Below are positions 495-35,552 of a stretch of 55,784 nt of DNA, piece after piece; position 1 is the first letter of the stretch; each line of letters begins with the position of its first letter. The DNA is from Prorocentrum cordatum. Its lineage: Eukaryota. The stretch is from contig CAUYUJ010000132.1 of NCBI GenBank assembly GCA_963575745.1, positions 62,001 through 117,784 on the forward strand, read 5' to 3'. Under the pieces are notes generated by a model. The model searched no databases. It saw only the letters and a program-made list of their open reading frames with translations, and was not told the DNA's origin. Position numbers and translations under genes: made by a program.

Positions 495-660
495 AATAAC
501 GGAGACAGAGCGAGGGAGAAAGAAAACAAAGCGAAAGCGAACAGCAGTGTTTGGCTCGAGCCCTGTCCTGGACCTCCTCGCGCCGTGGCAGAGACCACGA
601 CGGCAGGCTTCTGGCCGATCCCGGCGGGGAGCACGGCGCGAGGAGGAGGTTTGTCAGGAG

Positions 661-811
661 GGGAAAAAACACAGGCACAATGAATCGTCGATTCCCCAGA
701 AAATATGGGAAAATATGGGCAGTGGGGGGGAAGACAGAAACCCCGAAAAAAAGGGGGAAATATGGGGAATCCTGTTATTTGTGTATTTTTGTTGTGTGTC
801 CCAGGGCCTTC
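661..811 (+). repeat. ~155-bp dispersed repeat, copy 1 (others at 1895-2054 and, interrupted, 13443-13499 plus 14502-14603)
   Basis: Shared ACACAG(A/G)CACAA..CGTCG..CCCAG..TGGGAA..TGGGGAATCC..TTGTGTGTCCCAGG..CTTCA. Confidence 0.85.
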
Positions 812-1288: not shown

Positions 1289-2994
1289 GTCTGCGCCCCT
1301 CCTCCTCCTCCTCCTCCTCCTCCTCCTCTTCCTCCTCCTCCTCCTCCTCCTCCTCCGTTCCCCTGGACGTGGCCCCGCCCCCCGTGGATGGCACGGGGGG
1401 CGGCGCCGGAGGCGCCGGCGCCGCCCGGGGGCGGGGGGCCCGTCGCCGACCACCTGGGGCGCGGGCTGTCCGGCGGTGCGCGCTCGTGCCGCCATCGTGC
1501 TCGGGTGTTGCCAGAGAGGTGCCCCAGATTTCGTAAGAAAGGGAGGGGGGGTCTCGTTTCGGGGGGGGGGGTCTCTTCCAGGCCATCTTGGAGGGCCTGG
1601 GGGGTCTGGGGGCGATGTTTTGGAGGGTTCTCCCACGGGGGGGGGGTCTGAAATGGCTTGTCTTGGAGGGTCCAGACCCCCTCCCTTTTCCTACGAACTC
1701 TGGAGTACCCCTGGCCCTGGGTCCCCCCCAGGACTCTCGGGGTGGCCCAGGGGCGGCCTCCGGGGCCCCCCTCGCGAGGCCCAGGGGGGGCCCCCTAGGG
1801 GCTCCAGAGTGGAGCGAGAAGCTGCGGGCGCCTGGTGCCAGGAGCACTTCTGGCAGCACCCGATCGTGGAGGGCCGTTCCCGTGCAGCAGGAGGGGGGGG
1901 CAAAAGCACACAGACACAACGCGTCGTCGGCTCCCAGGGAGATGTGGGAAGATATGGGGAATGGGGGGGAGGACGAAGACCCAGAACAGATGGGACAGCT
2001 GTGGGGAATCCCGTTAGCTGTGTCCAGTTATTTGTGTGTCCCAGGTCCCCTTCAGTGCAGGCGGACCGAGAGGAGGAGCAACAGGAGGACGAGAGAGAGA
2101 GAGAGAGGGGAGGAGCAGGAGGACGAAAGGGAGGGGAAGGAGTCAGGGGGAGATGCAGACGTGACGGAGGATGGTGGGGAAGTGGAGGGAGAGGGTCGCC
2201 AACACAGCCGACGTGCCCCAAGGGAGCCCTGGAGGGGGGGTTCTCTCGGGGGCCTCGGAGGCATCGGTGGCCTCCTGGTCACGGTCGCTCGTGCTCGCGC
2301 TGCTCCGTTGGCAGTCCCCCGTCCGCCTGCTCGTACAGTCGGATCGCGGTCTGAGGTTGAGGTCGGTTCGGGGAGGCTACCCTCGTGTTCTTCGTGCTCA
2401 TTGGATGTTCTTGTGCATCCTTGGGAGGGAACCCGCAGATGTTCTGTCCGTTTTGGCCGGTGGAGGGTATCATGTTCTTGGGGGATGCTATTCCGGCCTG
2501 GGTCTGGCTGCAGTTGCGTGCTTTCCGACCCCGACGCAAGCCTCCGGCTCGGTTTTGGAGGTCGCCGAGGCAATCGCGGCGGCCCGAAATCGGGGCAGAG
2601 GTTCCGTAAAGGAGTGGCATGCCCCTTCCCAGCCCCCCCCCCCTCTTTGCGATGTAGACGCGGCTTATAATTAACAGTATAGCGACAGACCCCTGTCATT
2701 TCATGTCCAACATGGGCAGTCATGTTTTTCCCTGACTTGCACTTAGGATACCTTGCTTCTGGTCTAAGGAACTGGGCCTGGGTGTCGGTCTGGAGGCTCC
2801 ATGATCTTCGTCGCCACTCCGTCGCCGCCTCGTCGCCGTCCGTCGTCTGGGCCTGGGTGGCGGTCTGCCGGCTCCGTACTCGCCGTCGCCGCCCCGCCGC
2901 CACCTCGTCGCCGCCCGTCGTTTGGGCCCGGGTGGCGGTCTGGCGGCTCCGAACTCGCCGTCGCCGCCCCGTCGCCGCCCCGTCGCCGCCTAGA

Positions 2995-12165: not shown

Positions 12166-13499
12166 GCCACGCTGCGCTCGGCCGGCTGACGGCGTTGGGC
12201 GGCGGTGCCGGCGACGGCGGCGAGCACGGCGGCGATGGCGGCTTATCTCGATCTCGATCGCTGAACGTCCACCCGAAACGGGTCGGCCCGGTTGATTGCC
12301 AGTCTTTTAAGCCATAGCGGAGGCAAGCTCCGCTCGGCTTATGATGCTCCAACCTACTTTAGCCTCGTTCGCCAGGAAGAATTTCGAGCGCCCCAAAAAA
12401 GTACCGAAACTCCAGGGTTTTCACGCGTCGGGCCCTGGGAGACACTCGCCTGACACTGTTTCGACGCTGTCTCGACACTCTTTTGACACTTTTCCGGGTG
12501 CTGGAAATTGTTTCTGGGATGCGGTCCTTAAATAGGATGGGAACAACATAACGCTCGACGACATGTACATACGTCACAATCCCTCTTTTGAGGCAACTGG
12601 AGCACGTGGGCTCTCATGGTTGGGAGGTGTCGAGCCCCAGGCCGACTTTGCTTTCCCACGCAGTCTAGCAAGGGTGACACGGCCCTTTTTCTGAGTGTGT
12701 TCGCAAGGCAAATCAGCAGGGGATAACGAAAAAAGCTCAACGCAAGCTTCGGGGCGTTGGGTTTGCGCTTCAGGTATTGCGAAGGCCTTGCGGCTGGTGC
12801 CGTCGATCCTACAGGGGGACGACGACGGCGACGGCGAAACATAATCCCAAACCGAAGGCAAATCATTGAATTTGCCCGATTGGGCTTCTCTCGGTAGTGT
12901 TCTTGGGGCTCCCTTGGGCAACTTGGAGGCCTCTCGGCGGCTTCTTGGGCGCCTCTTGGGACCTCTTGGGGCGCAAGGGCCGAAATGCCGGTTGGGGGCA
13001 CCCCTCTCGGGAACCTCTTGGCTCTTGGGGCTTTTTCTGGGCCGTCGTGGGGCCGTCATGGGGCCGTCATGGGGCGTCATGGGGCCGTCTTGGGGCTGGG
13101 GCTCTCTCGGCAGCCTCCTGGGCCCCCGGTGCTCCCTGCCCGCTTGTCGGCAGTCCGCCTACCACTCCTCTGCTTGTCCGGCTGTCTGGGTTTGGGGGAG
13201 GGAGGAGGGAGGAGGGAGGAGGGAGGAGGGAGGAGGGAGGAGTGAGGAGGGAGGAGGGAGGAGGGAGGAGGCGCGCGGGCCACTTGCTGCAGACACTGGT
13301 GCGGCATCGGGGGAAGAAGCGCGGTGACCACGACCAAGATGTCGCGGGATCTTGTCCGCGCCGATCCTGGTCCTGGCCCATGTCGGCCGTCGCCGATCGT
13401 TCCCCCTCGCCCCCGCAGACCTGCCGCTGGTACGACAATCAGGAGGAGAAAACACACAGACACAATTCATCGTCGATTCCCCAGAAGGTATGGGAAAAT

Positions 13500-14501
13500 C
13501 CGTAAGGGCTTCGCCCCCTGCCGCCGGCCCCCTCTCTCGGAGAATGGGCCATGGATGAGCTAAGTCATGAGGCCTTGGCGCTGTCGTGAAGCAGTATCGA
13601 AACTTCATGCGAAGCCGATTCGCAATCAGCAAAACCAACTGATCACAAGAGGGGTTACCACACCTGGCGATTGGTAAGACGTGTATGGTTTACGGGCTTG
13701 GTTACCACACCTTGCGATTAAAGGGCCGAGGGAGTTCTCGCAGTTTGGGTTACCACGCCTTGCGATGGATGTGCGTGAAGGGTGGCACCGAATTTCAGAA
13801 ATGTGCAAATCCCAGTGTTTTTGGACCCTGACCCGCGGATCTGCGTAAGGGGTGGCGCCGAATTTCAGAAATGTGGCAAATCCCTGTGTTTTTGGACCCT
13901 GACCCCGCGGATCTGCGTGAGGGGTGGCACCGAATTTCAGAAATGTGGCAAATCCCCTGTGTTTTTGGACCCTGACCCCGCGGATCTGCGTGAGGGGTGG
14001 CACCGAATTTCAGAAATGTGGCAAATCCCCTGTGTTTTTGGACCCTGACCCCGCGGATCTGCGTGAGGGGTGGCACCGAATTTCAGAAATGTGGCAAATC
14101 CCCTGTGTTTTTGGACCCTGACCCCGCGGATCTGCGTGAGGGGTGGCACCGAATTTCAGAAATGTGGCAAATCCCTGTGTTTTTGGACCCTGACCCCGCG
14201 GATCTGCGTGAGGGGTGGCACCGAATTTCAGAAATGTGGCAAATCCCTGTGTTTTTGGACCCTGACCCCGCGGATCTGCGTGAGGGGTGTCGATTTCGAG
14301 CCCCCCCAGCAATTCAGACAACGCGCCCAGGAGACGCGAAAAATCTTGTTTGGGCCTCTCCTCCCCTCGCGCGGTCAATCAACTAGTTACAGTAACCAGC
14401 AAGAAGCAGAACTGTAACACTGGAAACTACAACCTACGACTGGTACAGGAAACTGCGAATCACGGTCCTACAGCCTGGTGGCCCCACAAGGGGGCCGGCG
14501 G
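13500..14501. mobile_element. 1002-bp non-autonomous insertion with CCG...CGG ends, AT target duplication, offset inverted repeat and 3' hairpin
   Basis: It splits a ~155-bp repeat whose intact copies at 661-811 and 1895-2054 define the empty site. Flanked AT|CCG and CGG|AT. CCGCCGGCCCC at 13521-13531 is the reverse complement of the terminal GGGGCCGGCGG (14491-14501). Hairpin GGCCCC-acaag-GGGGCC at 14480-14496. Confidence 0.85.
13767..14289. repeat. Tandem array of about 7.3 copies of a 70-73-bp unit
   Basis: Unit GGATCTGCGTGAGGGGTGGCACCGAATTTCAGAAATGTGGCAAATCCC(C)TGTGTTTTTGGACCCTGACCCCGC. AATTTC recurs at 13791, 13861, 13933, 14006, 14079, 14152 and 14224. Confidence 0.97.
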
Positions 14502-14603
14502 ATTTGGGAAGTGGGGGGGAAGACAAGAGCCCAGAAAATATGAGGACATTTGGGGAATCCTGTTATTTGTGTCTATTTATTTGTGTGTCCCAGGGCCCCT
14601 TCA

Positions 14604-17600
14604 AGGACGGAAGGTGCCTGGACACGGGTTCACCTCTGGCAAGTGCAGGGTCGTGGAACCATGCGAATTACCACCAGATGGCGGTGCACCTCCGCCAACA
14701 GCACAGCCGGCACCAGCACCTCCGTATCAGAGTGCCGGCAGCGGTGGAATGTCACCGCGAGCGGCATCGGGCCAACACGAACAGCCAATCACGAGCACCA
14801 CGCCCGGCCGCACAGTCGGATTCAAGCGACACTGCGAGACGCACGCGTGGCGACTCGCCAGACTCTGAACGAGACGAACAAGCCATGGGCCGACGCGGTA
14901 GAGGTCAGGGCGTCACGCCATCACCTGAGGATCCAAGGTGTCGGGGCACCTGCTGGGCCACCACGACTCCGAGACTGGATTGGATTCGATGTCGAATTCA
15001 GCCTACGTAGCCTTAAAGGTCATGACCCAGCAATTGTCGGATGTGAGCTGCGGGAACTACACCTCGGATGGAATCGCGCCAAAGAGCTTAAGATGCGGCT
15101 AATTCTCCCGAAGCTGGGCCTCGATTCTGTCCCTCTGGGCATGATCAAGGAGGCCAGCGACACCTGTAGGGAATGCCGTGCCCACTTCAACGAGGATGTG
15201 GAGTGTGATCCGATTTTCTACAGTATATGTATCGTCTTTCATATTTGTGACCGCTGCATAAGACGGAGTTGGGGACAGGAAATTCCTGACCGTACTATGC
15301 ACGCCATTCTAGATGCCTATCACTATTGCTGGGGTATCTACGAGAATTGCAAAATCCTATGCTCCGTTGGAGGGGGCGCCTTGCAGTCAACCCGCGTAGT
15401 AAGGCTGAACAACTTTCCAAGGATACCCTTGCATCCTTGCCCCGTCGGCTCGTCCTCAGCGACTTTCGCTGGCCAGCCCCATCCGGAAAACATCAACATG
15501 GTTTTCCAAGGCCCTTGCATGCTTACCGCACATCCTTACAATTGCGTTGACTGTAAACAACGACGCGGCGAAAACTATTTGAAAGGACGCAGGCGCCGAA
15601 CGTCGGATACGAGGTCCAAGTTAACGTGCGACCACCATCGAGGCTATGACTGACATCTCACGCGGCGCGACGCACATTATGGACAACTATTGGAAGAACA
15701 CGGGTCGACCGATAGAATTCAAGGTGGCTTTTTGCTGAGGCCTTATTCGTGCGCAGTGCTTTTACATGCCGCGACGGGGTATCAGCCTACGACGCATTAC
15801 TTGCGCGTCGACTGGCATGCCAGCCTGACCTGAACCTACCAGATCACGAGTCGCCGACGGAAGCGTCCGACCATAACAGGGAAACAACAGGTACGTCAGG
15901 TAAGCATTGAAGCCATAACGCAGGCAAATGCAGCGGCGAAAGCCAATCGGGCCCTGAAGACAACCACCAAGCAGGCTGGACAGCTCTGCTATCAACTAGG
16001 ATTCTTAGTTGACAACCGGCGACCTACAGCGAACAAGGACGATAGGGGAGGATGGAACGTACCATTTCCAGTAGTGCGCAACGTACCTGGTCGTGGACAT
16101 GTTATCTTGCAGTCGGGTTCTAGGTGCACCATTCTCCAATATACAGTCGTCAGCCACGCGCTTTATATCGAAGCTTGAATGCTACGTGAAGTTGGATCTG
16201 GCAGCGCTGCCATGCGTACAGTGGTTACCTTCATGACCTCGCTGCAGGGCGTCCTGGTATCACGTTCGGGTATACCCCTGACTCGCGAGAAAACTTGCGC
16301 ATGACGATTGGCAGCATTATGCACCTTAATCTGCATCTAGCAGCACAGTATATCATTCGCTGTGGTATCGCACTTGAGGACAGGGCACCTCGCCAAGAGC
16401 GAACGCAAGATGCCGCGCTTCTCGCGTGCAGACAGCGCGCTCATACACTACAATCGTGATGTGAACCCTAGATGCCATTTTTGCGAAGCAAGCGGGACCG
16501 CCATGAGCGTCAGGGACATCACGGGTGGTGCTCGATCCATGATAATCCAGCGCCTCAAATTCTCCCAGCTTCTGGCTGGATTCGATGAGGACCTCCCCGC
16601 TGTCAGGAACTCGCAGGTGGCTGTTCGGGCAGCAACCAAGGAAGGCGACCGCAAGAACATGTTGCCGAAAAGCCACCGGTTGGACCTGATAGGGGCCGGC
16701 TCTCAACGATCCAGGACGAAACGGAAGAGGGCGCGGGTGTGCGCATTATGGAGGAGTGGTTTGCTGAGGTCAAGGAGGAGAAGGAGCTACAACATGAAAC
16801 CTTCTTGTAGTCCTATATGGCCCTGGTCTTTATGCCGTGCCGATGCAGATGGTGCCAAACGAACGCGTGCTAGTCTCTGCGATGTGCGACGGGCAGGGGA
16901 ACTTCCCTGCTGGGCCTGGAAAGAGGCCAGACTACGATGTAGACTCATACGCTATGCCACTACATCTGTGTGAGTACGACCATAGGTATGCGCTAAATGC
17001 AGATTGTCGTGGGAAATGCGTTGAACTAATCATTGCAGCAGACGTGGCAGAAGTCGGTTGGGCCACGCGGTTGCGGCCCCATGCGTGCGTGCGTCGCCGC
17101 GGCGTCCAAACGCGCATTGGTCGTGCAGGGGGGTGGGCTTTTGACGGGGCGAGATTCAAGAACATTCTCTGAATATGTCGAACGCCCTACATGCCGAGCA
17201 ACGTATCTGGTGCGACGGCGTCTGCTTCCACTTGCGTTTGCTAGCTGAATCTTTAAGCGTCATGATATTTTGCGGTGGGCGAGATGGGGTGGGCGATTCG
17301 CCCCGGACTGCTGCTGAGGGGCTTCGTGGGCGTCGACGCTTTCGACGTCGAGACCTTCTTTGGGGCGGCAGCGTTTACTTTGCGCGGCAGCGTGCGGAAT
17401 GGCATGGGCACTTGCGTCTCCAGACAGGGATAAAGCCTGTCTGGGGGGCCTTGCCCGTCGAGAGCCCGCGGCGGCCGCGGGCGAGATTGATGTGTCAGGG
17501 TGTTTCGCGCCCCTTCCTGGATCGGCTGCTTCGCTCCGAGCGCTCTTCGCAAACTTCGACGAAGCGAAGCGCTGTCCCCAGTGCTTGAAGCCTGGCACGG

Positions 17601-20547: not shown

Positions 20548-20647
20548 NNNNNNNNNNNNNNNNNNNNNNNNNNNNNNNNNNNNNNNNNNNNNNNNNNNNN
20601 NNNNNNNNNNNNNNNNNNNNNNNNNNNNNNNNNNNNNNNNNNNNNNN
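20548..20647. other. Assembly gap (100 N)
   Basis: Run of n. Confidence 1.
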
Positions 20648-34291: not shown

Positions 34292-35552
34292 TGGCGATGG
34301 CGGCGACAATATCAGCTGCGGTGACGGCTACGGTGACGGCAGCGACAACGGCGGATATGCATAGGACTTTCGATGTCTCTGGAGGCTCCCGGGAGACCGC
34401 AGAGGGGAAGAACAAAGCACACACACACACGACCACCAAAAAAAACGACGGCGCTTCCCCGGTCTCAACTTGTACAGGCCGAGGTCCCTGATGAAGGCGT
34501 CCACGATTTGAAAGAAGTACGGCCTTCTTGGAAGACCGCGCCTCTTTGGCCCACAACAGCCCCTCTCCTTAGGATGCAACTTCTGGGAGGCTTGATTCCT
34601 CGCCGGCGAATCTTCGTGCTTGAAAACCAGTTCATCTTACCTAAATTGTTTGAATATGTCGTCATCCTGGGTTTGGTATAGGCGAAACTGGCTCGATGAC
34701 GCCCTCATCAGGCATAGTGGCCTTCAATCGCTCCCGCGAAGACCTCCCACGAGTCGCCTCCCAACCTCCCTTCTTCGCATCCCCCTCCGCCGCGTCCTTC
34801 TCGTCCCTCCGAGCTCTTAGCTCGCCTCGCCCTCGCCCGCCTCTGCCCCCCCCCTCTCCCCCCAGAGAAGTCGCGGGAGAACCACAAAAAAACAGGGTGG
34901 CGGATTCTCAAGGCGTTGGGCCTTTGGAGGCCTGCTTCGGGCCTCTGGGCCGTCAGGAGGAGGAGGAGGAGGAGGAGGAGGAGGAGGAGGAGGAGGAGGA
35001 GGAGGAGGAGGAGGAGGGAGGAGGAGGAGAGGAGGAGGAGGAGGAGGAGAGAGGAGAGGAGGAGAGGAGGAGGAGGAGGGAGAGGAGGGGGCAAGGCAGG
35101 AGGGGGGGAGGTGAAAGGAGAGGAGGAGGAGGAGGAGGAGGAGGAGGAGGAGGAGAAGGAGAAGCAGGAGGGAGGAGGGAGGATTTCAAATTCAGGCTTG
35201 CGCATGCGCAGAGCTGCAGACCACAGAGGAGCTTGGAGGGCGGTCTACAGACGCCCACCTGCCGGAGGACGTGCTCGCGCAGGGACGGGACGGAGACGGC
35301 AGGGGAGACGGACAGTCGGGCAACCAGCGCAAATCTCACCCGAAAGGAGGGGCGAGGGAGGAGGGAGAGGGGCTGCCTCCCTGAGATCCGACGTCACGAA
35401 ACGACTGCAGCATCGTCAAAAACATCGACCAGAGCCCTGGACCCCATCTTTCTGCCGCGTTTCTCGAGCTGGGTCCATCCGTGAGGGCCCGGGGCCCGAA
35501 ACGAGGGACAATTTCGCCCTTTGCGACACGAAGTGCGACATGCGGATCTTAG

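What the first reader, a model, noticed from the sequence alone, without database searches (positions are those of the whole stretch)
13500..14501. Precisely bounded 1-kb insertion with asymmetric terminal inverted repeats, AT duplication and 3' hairpin
The empty site can be rebuilt from two intact host-repeat copies in this window (gggaaaAT-atgggcagt versus gggaaaAT[insert]AT-ttgggaagt), which implies a 2-bp AT duplication. The right terminus GGGGCCGGCGG is mirrored not at the left terminus but 21 nt inside it, and it overlaps a GC hairpin. Offset IRs, a hairpin and internal tandem repeats recall Helentron/Helitron2 non-autonomous elements (HINE, DINE-1), but those insert in T-runs without a TSD. 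CCG..CGG ends with an AT TSD fit no superfamily I can name, so this may be an undescribed transposon type.
Basis: partly seen in the sequence, partly recalled or inferred. Interest (0 to 1): 0.7.

Follow-up and report, generated by a model that had tools for sequence, protein, structure and literature searches.

The report
Non-autonomous Helitron-like element in host repeat
The 1-kb insertion is a non-coding, high-copy rolling-circle (Helitron2/Helentron-type) transposon lying on the minus strand inside a short host repeat, so it is an ordinary member of a known kind and not a new transposon type.

Summary
The insertion is real. Two empty copies of the host repeat in the window show a net gain of 1004 nt. 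A perfect 13-nt inverted repeat links the ends (0 of 5000 shuffles reach 13). A 73-bp x 7.2 tandem array fills the centre.

The "AT duplication" is only one of several equivalent ways to place a 2-nt surplus. The one other complete copy I could fetch (metagenome contig L002) has AT on one side and TT on the other.

Read on the minus strand, the element matches the published Helitron2/HLE2 end architecture:
- The 5' inverted-repeat arm sits 0-2 nt from the end, inside a 5' hairpin.
- The 3' arm sits 21-23 nt from the end, followed by a small hairpin.
- The ends are conserved, the 3' end more than the 5' end.
- The central tandem repeats differ between copies.
- One copy keeps only the 3' end, and a second family shares only the last 38 nt.

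No ORF in the element has a Pfam domain. The family and the host repeat are both very high-copy in all 4 sequencing runs I laid.

Verdict: a non-autonomous Helitron-like (HLE2, HINE-like) element, a new member of a known kind. Three things remain open because no genome was available: the RepHel partner, the exact target rule (A|T fits 5 of 5 junctions, T|T fits 2 of 5) and the organism.

The parts
13498..14503 (-). Whole non-autonomous element. Net gain is 1004 nt; each boundary is uncertain by 2 nt (registers 13498-14501, 13499-14502 or 13500-14503).
   Evidence: Empty host copies and gap-free alignment after removal; copies in L001 and L002.
14489..14501 (-). 5' asymmetric terminal inverted repeat (ATIR), CCGCCGGCCCCCT on the minus strand, 0-2 nt from the 5' end.
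   Evidence: 13 nt, 100% complementary; 0 of 5000 shuffles; 12 of 13 nt kept in L002.
14480..14496 (-). 5' hairpin GGCCCC / 5-nt loop / GGGGCC. It includes part of the 5' ATIR.
   Evidence: identical in L002. Energy is not better than shuffles (z -0.63 on the minus strand, -1.11 on the plus strand).
14358..14501 (-). Conserved 5' terminal block (left terminal sequence, LTS).
   Evidence: 79.7% identity over 143 nt to L002:758-899.
13767..14289 (.). Central tandem array, 73 bp x 7.2 (52% of the element).
   Evidence: L002 carries an unrelated 42-bp x 4.6 array in the same position.
13653..13766 (.). Three direct copies of a 19-nt motif (GGTTACCACRCCTKGCGAT), about 47 nt apart.
   Evidence: 3 matches; 0 of 100 shuffles reach 3.
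13521..13533 (-). 3' ATIR (AGGGGGCCGGCGG on the minus strand), 21-23 nt from the 3' end.
   Evidence: identical in L002, with one extra C in L001.
13506..13516 (-). 3' hairpin GGGC-GAA-GCCC on the minus strand, 4 nt downstream of the 3' ATIR.
   Evidence: identical in 3 of 3 copies. Energy is not better than shuffles (z +0.41).
13498..13619 (-). Conserved 3' terminal block (right terminal sequence, RTS).
   Evidence: 89.3% to L002 and 86.9% to L001 over 122 nt; L001 to L002 is 92.1% over 126 nt.
13445..13497 (.). Left half of the interrupted host repeat (about 155 bp, foldback/MITE-like, very high copy).
   Evidence: loose ends and depth.
14504..14603 (.). Right half of the interrupted host repeat.
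654..808 (.). Empty copy of the host repeat.
   Evidence: 88.5% and 83.5% to the two flanks.
1903..2054 (.). Empty copy of the host repeat.
   Evidence: 76.5% and 82.9% to the two flanks.

Best explanation
The insert is a non-autonomous Helitron-like element of the HLE2 group (Helitron2/Helentron type, comparable to HINE/DINE-1). It lies on the minus strand and interrupts a short high-copy host repeat.

Inferred mechanism, not shown here:
- A RepHel protein (HUH nuclease plus Pif1-like helicase), encoded by an autonomous relative elsewhere in the genome, nicks the transferred strand at the 5' end and unwinds it.
- It stops at the 3' signal, which consists of the 3' inverted-repeat arm and the hairpin after it. 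Pairing of the 5' and 3' arms helps define that end point.
- The single-stranded or circular intermediate is pasted into an A/T-rich site without a regular target-site duplication.

The central tandem array is passenger DNA that differs between family members.

Shown here: the insertion, the end architecture, conserved ends in independent copies at different sites, the lack of any Pfam match in its ORFs, and high copy number.
For: (1) Helitron2 geometry on the minus strand. The 13-nt arm is 0-2 nt from the 5' end and sits inside a 5' hairpin. The 3' arm is 21-23 nt from the 3' end and a hairpin follows 4 nt later. This matches the published ranges: arms of 8-15 bp, 5' arm 0-2 bp from the end, 3' arm 20-30 bp from the end and upstream of the hairpin (PMC3627910). 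It also matches the HLE2 description of 12-16 nt repeats with a stem-loop after the right repeat (PMC11417382).

(2) The inverted repeat is not chance: 0 of 5000 shuffles reach 13 nt.

(3) Independent copies exist at other sites. L002 holds a complete 757-nt relative with both ends and a different central array. L001 holds only the 3' 122 nt.

(4) The 3' block is more conserved (87-92%) than the 5' block (80%), as reported for HLEs.

(5) A 3'-end-only copy (L001) fits the 5' truncation described for Helitron2 elements. In run X2, 14 contigs share only the last 38 nt and then diverge (loose end at 13537).

(6) Tandem repeats make up about half of the element, as in HINEs.

(7) No Pfam domain was found in the 7 ORFs in or overlapping the element.

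(8) Copy number is very high. Records laid were 41,356, 5,337, 493 and 1,091 in 4 of 4 runs, with summed word depth of 1e2-1e5 across the element.

(9) No reproducible TSD.
Against: - No autonomous RepHel-encoding copy was found, and none could be looked for: no genome is held and the collection scans gave only 2 related contigs.
- The usual HLE2 T|T target fits only the window copy, 2 of 5 junctions. An A|T reading fits 5 of 5.
- AT does flank both sides in the window copy.
- L001 and L002 share 4 more bases (TGTT on the plus strand) outside the AT. The true 3' boundary or the target preference is therefore not settled.
- Hairpin energies are no better than shuffles, and there are no compensatory changes to test because the stems are identical in all copies.
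- Only 3 left and 2 right junctions were available.
Confidence: 0.75

Rival explanations
1. It is a canonical Helitron (HLE1) non-autonomous element read on the plus strand. It would start with 5' TC, insert between A and T, and carry a 3' hairpin a few bases from the end.
For: On the plus strand 3 of 3 copies read A|TCCGTAAGG. Both right junctions can be read as ...|T. The hairpin GGCCCC/GGGGCC lies 5-6 nt from the right end. A|T fits 5 of 5 junctions.
Against: The 3' end is GCGGA or GGCG, not CTRR. HLE1 elements lack terminal inverted repeats and a 5' hairpin, and this element has both. On this strand the left end would be better conserved than the right, the reverse of what is reported for HLEs. 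The truncated copy would then be 3'-truncated.
Confidence: 0.1
2. It is an undescribed cut-and-paste transposon that duplicates a 2-bp AT target.
For: AT flanks both sides in the window copy, and removing CCG..CGG plus one AT restores a host-repeat-like site. A 13-nt inverted repeat is present.
Against: The repeat arms are offset by 21 nt, so they are not at both termini. L002 has AT on the left and TT on the right. The left AT is conserved together with the element in 3 of 3 copies, as expected if it is part of the element or a fixed target. I know of no superfamily with an AT TSD; that point is recalled, not tested.
Confidence: 0.08
3. It is mobilised by another single-strand or site-specific enzyme, such as an IS200/IS605-like Y1 HUH transposase or a tyrosine recombinase. 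Such an enzyme would recognise subterminal hairpins and insert next to a short fixed target (..AT).
For: There are hairpins near both ends and no reproducible TSD. AT precedes the plus-strand left end in 3 of 3 copies, and TTAT does so in 2 of 3.
Against: The inverted-repeat geometry is specifically that of Helitron2. Published Helitron2-like elements also show fixed short targets, for example TNAT|A in Fusarium (PMC5148889). I recall no high-copy eukaryotic family of this kind mobilised by a Y1 enzyme; this was not searched.
Confidence: 0.05
4. It is not a mobile element but a local insertion or expansion of satellite DNA.
For: Half of the insert is a tandem array.
Against: The same ends bound a different interior at another site (L002). 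One end occurs at a third site (L001). Thousands of contigs in 4 of 4 runs match the non-array parts.
Confidence: 0.02

Closest known systems
Helitron2 non-autonomous elements (e.g. [quoted passage not shown]
   Same: Short asymmetric terminal inverted repeats. The 5' arm is at the end and inside a 5' hairpin. The 3' arm is 20-30 bp from the end and upstream of a 3' hairpin. Size is about 0.65-1 kb, with no coding capacity, no regular TSD, an A/T-run target and 5'-truncated copies.
   Different: The Chlamydomonas families insert after TTTT. Here the flanks are AAA(T)|..|(A)TTT in the window and A-run|..|AACA in L002 (minus strand). No sequence similarity was tested or claimed. No RepHel partner is known here.
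HINE / DINE-1 (non-autonomous Helentrons; Thomas et al. 2014, PMC4067079, passages read)
   Same: Inverted repeats of 12-15 bp near the ends, a small palindrome near the 3' end, central tandem repeats that can fill about 50% of the element, and higher copy number than any partner.
   Different: In the mite HINEs the 3' repeat lies 38-60 bp from the end; here it is 21-23. Those elements prefer TT and carry variable T runs at their ends, which fits only the window copy here. Helentron status needs a partner with an endonuclease domain, which could not be tested.
FoHeli1/2 of Fusarium oxysporum (Helitron2-like; PMC5148889, passages read)
   Same: Asymmetric inverted repeats and hairpins at both termini. 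The target is not TT (between TNAT and A), showing that HLE2 targets vary. There is an ambiguous terminal T.
   Different: Those are autonomous fungal elements with a known RepHel. Here the element is non-coding and TTAT precedes the plus-strand left end in only 2 of 3 copies.
Canonical Helitron (HLE1)
   Same: An A|T reading fits all 5 junctions. There is a 5' TC on the plus strand and a hairpin close to one end.
   Different: No CTRR end. It has terminal inverted repeats and a second hairpin, which HLE1 lacks.

Membership tests
Helitron2 / HLE2 | Short inverted repeats (8-15 or 12-16 bp) with the 5' arm 0-2 bp from the 5' end | tested here: met
   13 nt, perfect, 0-2 nt from the minus-strand 5' end depending on register; 12 of 13 nt kept in L002.
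Helitron2 / HLE2 | 3' arm about 20-30 bp from the 3' end, just upstream of a 3' hairpin | tested here: met
   The arm at 13521-13533 is 21-23 nt from the end. The hairpin at 13506-13516 follows after 4 nt. Identical in 3 of 3 copies.
Helitron2 / HLE2 | 5' hairpin that includes part or all of the 5' arm | tested here: met
   GGCCCC/GGGGCC at 14480-14496 overlaps the arm at 14489-14501. Its energy is not better than shuffles (z -0.63).
Helitron2 / HLE2 | No target-site duplication | tested here: inconclusive
   The window copy has AT on both sides; L002 has AT and TT. Only 2 complete copies were available.
Helitron2 / HLE2 | Insertion between T and T | tested here: inconclusive
   Fits 2 of 5 junctions (window only); A|T fits 5 of 5. 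Published HLE2 targets vary.
Helitron2 / HLE2 | Autonomous partner encoding RepHel with the same ends | not testable with these tools
   No genome is held. Collection scans gave 2 short related contigs without RepHel.
Helitron2 / HLE2 | 3' end (RTS) more conserved than 5' end (LTS), with a variable interior | tested here: met
   RTS 87-92% against LTS 80%; different central arrays.
Helentron / HINE | Partner carries an AP-endonuclease domain | not testable with these tools
   No partner found.
Canonical Helitron (HLE1) | 3' end CTRR | tested here: not met
   The plus-strand right end is GCGGA (window) or GGCG (L002).
Canonical Helitron (HLE1) | No terminal inverted repeats; a single 3' hairpin | tested here: not met
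   A 13-nt inverted repeat and hairpins near both ends.
Cut-and-paste TIR transposon with 2-bp TSD (e.g. Tc1/mariner, TA) | Inverted repeats at both extreme termini and a constant 2-bp duplication | tested here: not met
   One arm is 21 nt inside the end. There is no TA. AT is not duplicated in L002.
IS200/IS605-like | Subterminal hairpins, no inverted repeats, insertion 3' of a fixed 4-5 nt target, Y1 TnpA partner | tested here: inconclusive
   Hairpins are present. An inverted repeat is also present, which argues against membership. TTAT precedes the left end in 2 of 3 copies and AAAT in 1 of 3. The partner is not testable.

The most novel reading that the evidence does not exclude
The family combines HLE2 end architecture with an HLE1-like A|T integration rule, or a strict ..AT target that sometimes gives an apparent 2-bp duplication. 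It may be driven by a RepHel lineage, or another HUH enzyme, not yet described in this unidentified GC-rich aquatic eukaryote. Its near-identical pieces in runs labelled with three different organisms and in 15 studies could reflect spread between hosts, not one common organism.
Probability: 0.12. Interest if true: 0.5.

Novelty: new member of a known kind. Interest (0 to 1): 0.25.

Why it matters
The finding mainly clears up an apparent oddity. Read on the other strand, the odd ends are the standard ends of a Helitron2-type element.

It has modest value for annotation. The family, and the even more abundant 155-bp host repeat, are major repeats of a GC-rich aquatic eukaryote whose repeats show up in many marine, estuarine and freshwater metagenome runs. 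The ends defined here (3' block 13498-13619, 5' block 14358-14501, minus strand) could be used to find the autonomous partner and to mask or trace this organism in metagenomes.

If the A|T rule held in a large sample, it would add to the evidence that HLE2 target choice varies.

Tried and rejected
**Genome and collection searches**
- Whole-genome search: no genome is held.
- Viral-contig scans with both ends: 0 and 0 matches.
- Metagenome-contig scan with the 24-nt end: only 2 contigs.
- Genome-contig scan with the 21-nt hairpin end: 1 match, in an actinobacterial MAG. The upstream sequence does not match the element, so I treat it as a chance GC-rich hairpin.
- Other copies or shared arms inside the window: none. 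The 30- and 28-nt ends with up to 3 mismatches gave only self hits. blastn gave only self hits. The arm motif gave only the two arms. The one 2-mismatch hit of the hairpin motif, at 35552, is within chance.

**Naming the organism**
- Two protein searches returned only unnamed ENA proteins.
- The atlas search gave no taxa.
- No tRNA genes and no Rfam family.
- Pfam on 79 of 79 window ORFs of at least 90 aa with a top-three-residue fraction below 0.36, plus one extra ORF, gave 0 hits above threshold and 2 below the curated cut-off (Nse4_C, A2L_zn_ribbon).

**Other checks**
- Earlier notes of this scan: nothing.
- Full-text search for four terminal strings: only chance hits of one 11-mer in unrelated papers. 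The family's ends are therefore not printed in the searched library.
- None of the 4 laid runs covers the unique flanks: 14657-14800 has zero depth, and 13280-13432 has low depth with many differences. I could therefore not test whether this locus is polymorphic.
- The Tc1/mariner (TA) reading was rejected because no TA lies at either junction.

Full report
**What is in the sequence**

The window is about 60% G+C and full of simple repeats. It has one 100-N gap. No whole genome is held for it.

At 13500-14501 a block interrupts a short dispersed repeat. Two uninterrupted copies of that repeat lie at 654-808 and 1903-2054. Contigs from four public runs give the same empty-site consensus..GGGAAAAT-A-TGGGAAGT.. 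(loose ends at 13499 and 14505, and the joint 13499>14505 with A between).

Relative to the empty copies, the filled copy GGGAAAAT[CCG...GCGG]ATTTGGG has gained 1004 nt. That is the 1002-nt block plus 2 more bases. When 13498-14501 is removed, the three host copies align without a gap and differ by one substitution at the junction. One contig in run X1 joins 13496 to 14501, which reads GGGAAGATTTGGG (table 5). Host copies with ATTTGGG therefore exist.

The block has three notable features:
- A perfect 13-nt inverted repeat, 13521-13533 against 14489-14501. None of 5000 shuffles of the two 45-nt ends reaches that length.
- A 73-bp x 7.2 tandem array at 13767-14289.
- Three copies of a 19-nt motif at 13653-13766.

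**Is AT a target-site duplication?**

The 2-nt surplus can be read in two ways. It can be an AT duplication around CCG..GCGG. It can also be part of a 1004-nt element with no duplication, in one of three registers. The window alone cannot decide between them.

One scan of JGI metagenome contigs with the 24-nt left end gave two contigs.
- L002 holds a complete 757-nt relative. Its left junction reads ..CTTGTT-AT-CCGTAAGG and its right junction reads ..GGGGGCCGGCG-TTTTTTTTG. AT is therefore not repeated on the right.
- L001 holds only the left 122 nt, again preceded by TGTT-AT.

All three alignments start at the AT. In run X6, 4 contigs also begin their match at 13498 with unlike sequence before it. 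AT thus behaves as part of the element or as a fixed target, not as a duplication. With 3 left and 2 right junctions this is suggestive, not proven.

**What the element is**

Bao & Jurka (PMC3627910, passages read) define Helitron2 by these features:
- Asymmetric terminal inverted repeats of 8-15 bp.
- A 5' arm 0-2 bp from the 5' end that forms a 5' hairpin with downstream bases.
- A 3' arm about 20-30 bp from the 3' end, just upstream of the 3' hairpin.
- No regular TSD.

The HELIANO paper (PMC11417382, passages read) describes canonical HLE2 as having 12-16 nt terminal inverted repeats with a stem-loop after the right repeat.

On the minus strand the insert reads as follows:
- 5' (T)CCGCCGGCCCCCTTGTGGGGCC... 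The 13-nt arm starts 0-2 nt from the end and lies inside the hairpin GGCCCC/GGGGCC.
- ...AGGGGGCCGGCGG-CAGG-GGGCGAAGCCC-TTACGG(AT) 3'. The 3' arm is 21-23 nt from the end and a 4-bp hairpin with a GAA loop follows.

From memory, not from a call: GCGAAGC is known as an unusually stable DNA mini-hairpin. That would favour the minus strand as the strand that folds.

Four further observations point to the same orientation and class:
- The 3' block is better conserved (86.9-92.1% over 122-126 nt) than the 5' block (79.7% over 143 nt). HLE left ends are reported to be more diverse than right ends.
- L001 keeps only the 3' block, like the 5'-truncated Helitron2 copies described.
- In run X2, 14 contigs share only the last 38 nt (arm, hairpin and tail) and then diverge. 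This is expected if that segment is the signal shared between families.
- The interior is interchangeable. The window copy has a 73-bp array and L002 has a 42-bp x 4.6 array. HINEs behave the same way, with tandem repeats filling up to about 50% of the element (PMC4067079). An oyster study is listed as reporting satellite-like arrays carried by Helentron non-autonomous elements (PMC7492417); I saw only the search listing and the start of the abstract.

The 7 ORFs in or overlapping the element have no Pfam match.

**Abundance**

In 4 of 4 runs laid at 80% likeness or better, 41,356, 5,337, 493 and 1,091 contig records matched the stretch. In X18 they split 10,981 / 17,500 / 11,572 / 1,303 by likeness class. 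Summed word depth across the non-array parts of the element was of the order of 1e2-1e5. The host repeat halves were deeper still.

The run index listed 24 runs. Twenty hold part of the stretch, they come from 15 studies, and most are marine, estuarine, seawater or freshwater metagenomes. None of the four laid runs covers the unique flanks. What these runs hold is therefore the repeats, not this locus.

My inference is that the organism is present at low coverage in those samples, so only its high-copy repeats assemble. I cannot exclude that related species share the family.

**What argues against, or stays open**

- No RepHel partner could be sought.
- The usual HLE2 T|T rule fits the window copy (minus strand CCCAAAT|CCGCC...ACGGAT|TTTCCC) but fits neither L002 nor L001, so 2 of 5 junctions.
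- An A|T reading, with the element as TCCG...GCGGA on the plus strand, fits 5 of 5.
- HLE2 targets do vary in print: TTTT|T/C in Chlamydomonas, TT with variable T runs in Helentrons, and TNAT|A in Fusarium.
- L001 and L002 share TGTT before the AT. This could be a slightly longer 3' end in their subfamily or a target preference.
- Hairpin energies are within the range of shuffles, z from -1.11 to +0.41. All stems are identical between copies, so covariation cannot be tested.
- On the plus strand the same features resemble the "HLE2-reverse"/proto-Helentron layout, with the stem-loop upstream of the left repeat. Without the RepHel gene, orientation is defined only by structure.

**Rivals**

- A canonical Helitron on the plus strand has points in its favour: TC start, A|T insertion, and a hairpin near the end. 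It fails on CTRR and on the presence of inverted repeats.
- A new AT-duplicating cut-and-paste element fails on the offset arms and on L002.
- An IS200/IS605-like or recombinase-driven element cannot be excluded without the partner. It explains the inverted-repeat geometry less well.
- A non-mobile satellite insertion is contradicted by the independent copies.

**Verdict**

The element is a non-autonomous Helitron-like element of the HLE2 (Helitron2/Helentron) kind. It is a new family in an unidentified GC-rich aquatic eukaryote and an ordinary member of a known class. Confidence is 0.75 and interest is low to moderate.

Noticed in passing
window 13445-13497 + 14504-14603; 654-808; 1903-2054: The interrupted host repeat is itself a foldback element of about 155 bp (arms ACACACAGACACAA/TTGTGTC..TGTGTGT and GATTCCCCA/TGGGGAATC). 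It is even more abundant than the insert in the laid runs (summed word depth up to about 1e5). Its right end is a pyrimidine run followed by CCCAG|G, which looks like a 3' splice site, so it may be a MITE or an introner-like element.
   Followed up: partly
window 14928-15650 (+): A non-repetitive ORF just right of the host repeat has two unnamed relatives (51-54% identity, E about 4e-25), one of them in a 12-member cluster, and no Pfam domain. It may be a lineage-specific or repeat-borne gene.
   Followed up: partly
window 12901-12974; L002:2-55; L001 about 190-260: A 21-22-bp tandem motif (GGGCGCCTCTTGGGCCGTCT-like) recurs near the element in the window and in both metagenome contigs. L002:955-1025 also matches four places in the window at 84-88%. 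The contigs therefore come from the same or a closely related organism.
   Followed up: no
L001:130-1143 (-): A gene for a Laminin_G_3 (concanavalin-like) domain protein lies beside the truncated copy. Its only database relative is the identical protein.
   Followed up: partly
whole window: No Pfam domain above threshold in 79 of 79 ORFs of at least 90 aa with a top-three-residue fraction below 0.36 (plus one extra ORF). No tRNA and no Rfam family in 55.8 kb. There are very many trinucleotide and 9-12-nt period arrays and a 100-N gap at 20548-20647.
   Followed up: partly
L003:2501-2521: The 21-nt hairpin end matches exactly in an actinobacterial MAG, downstream of what looks like the end of a gene. 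It looks like a chance terminator-like hairpin unrelated to the element.
   Followed up: yes
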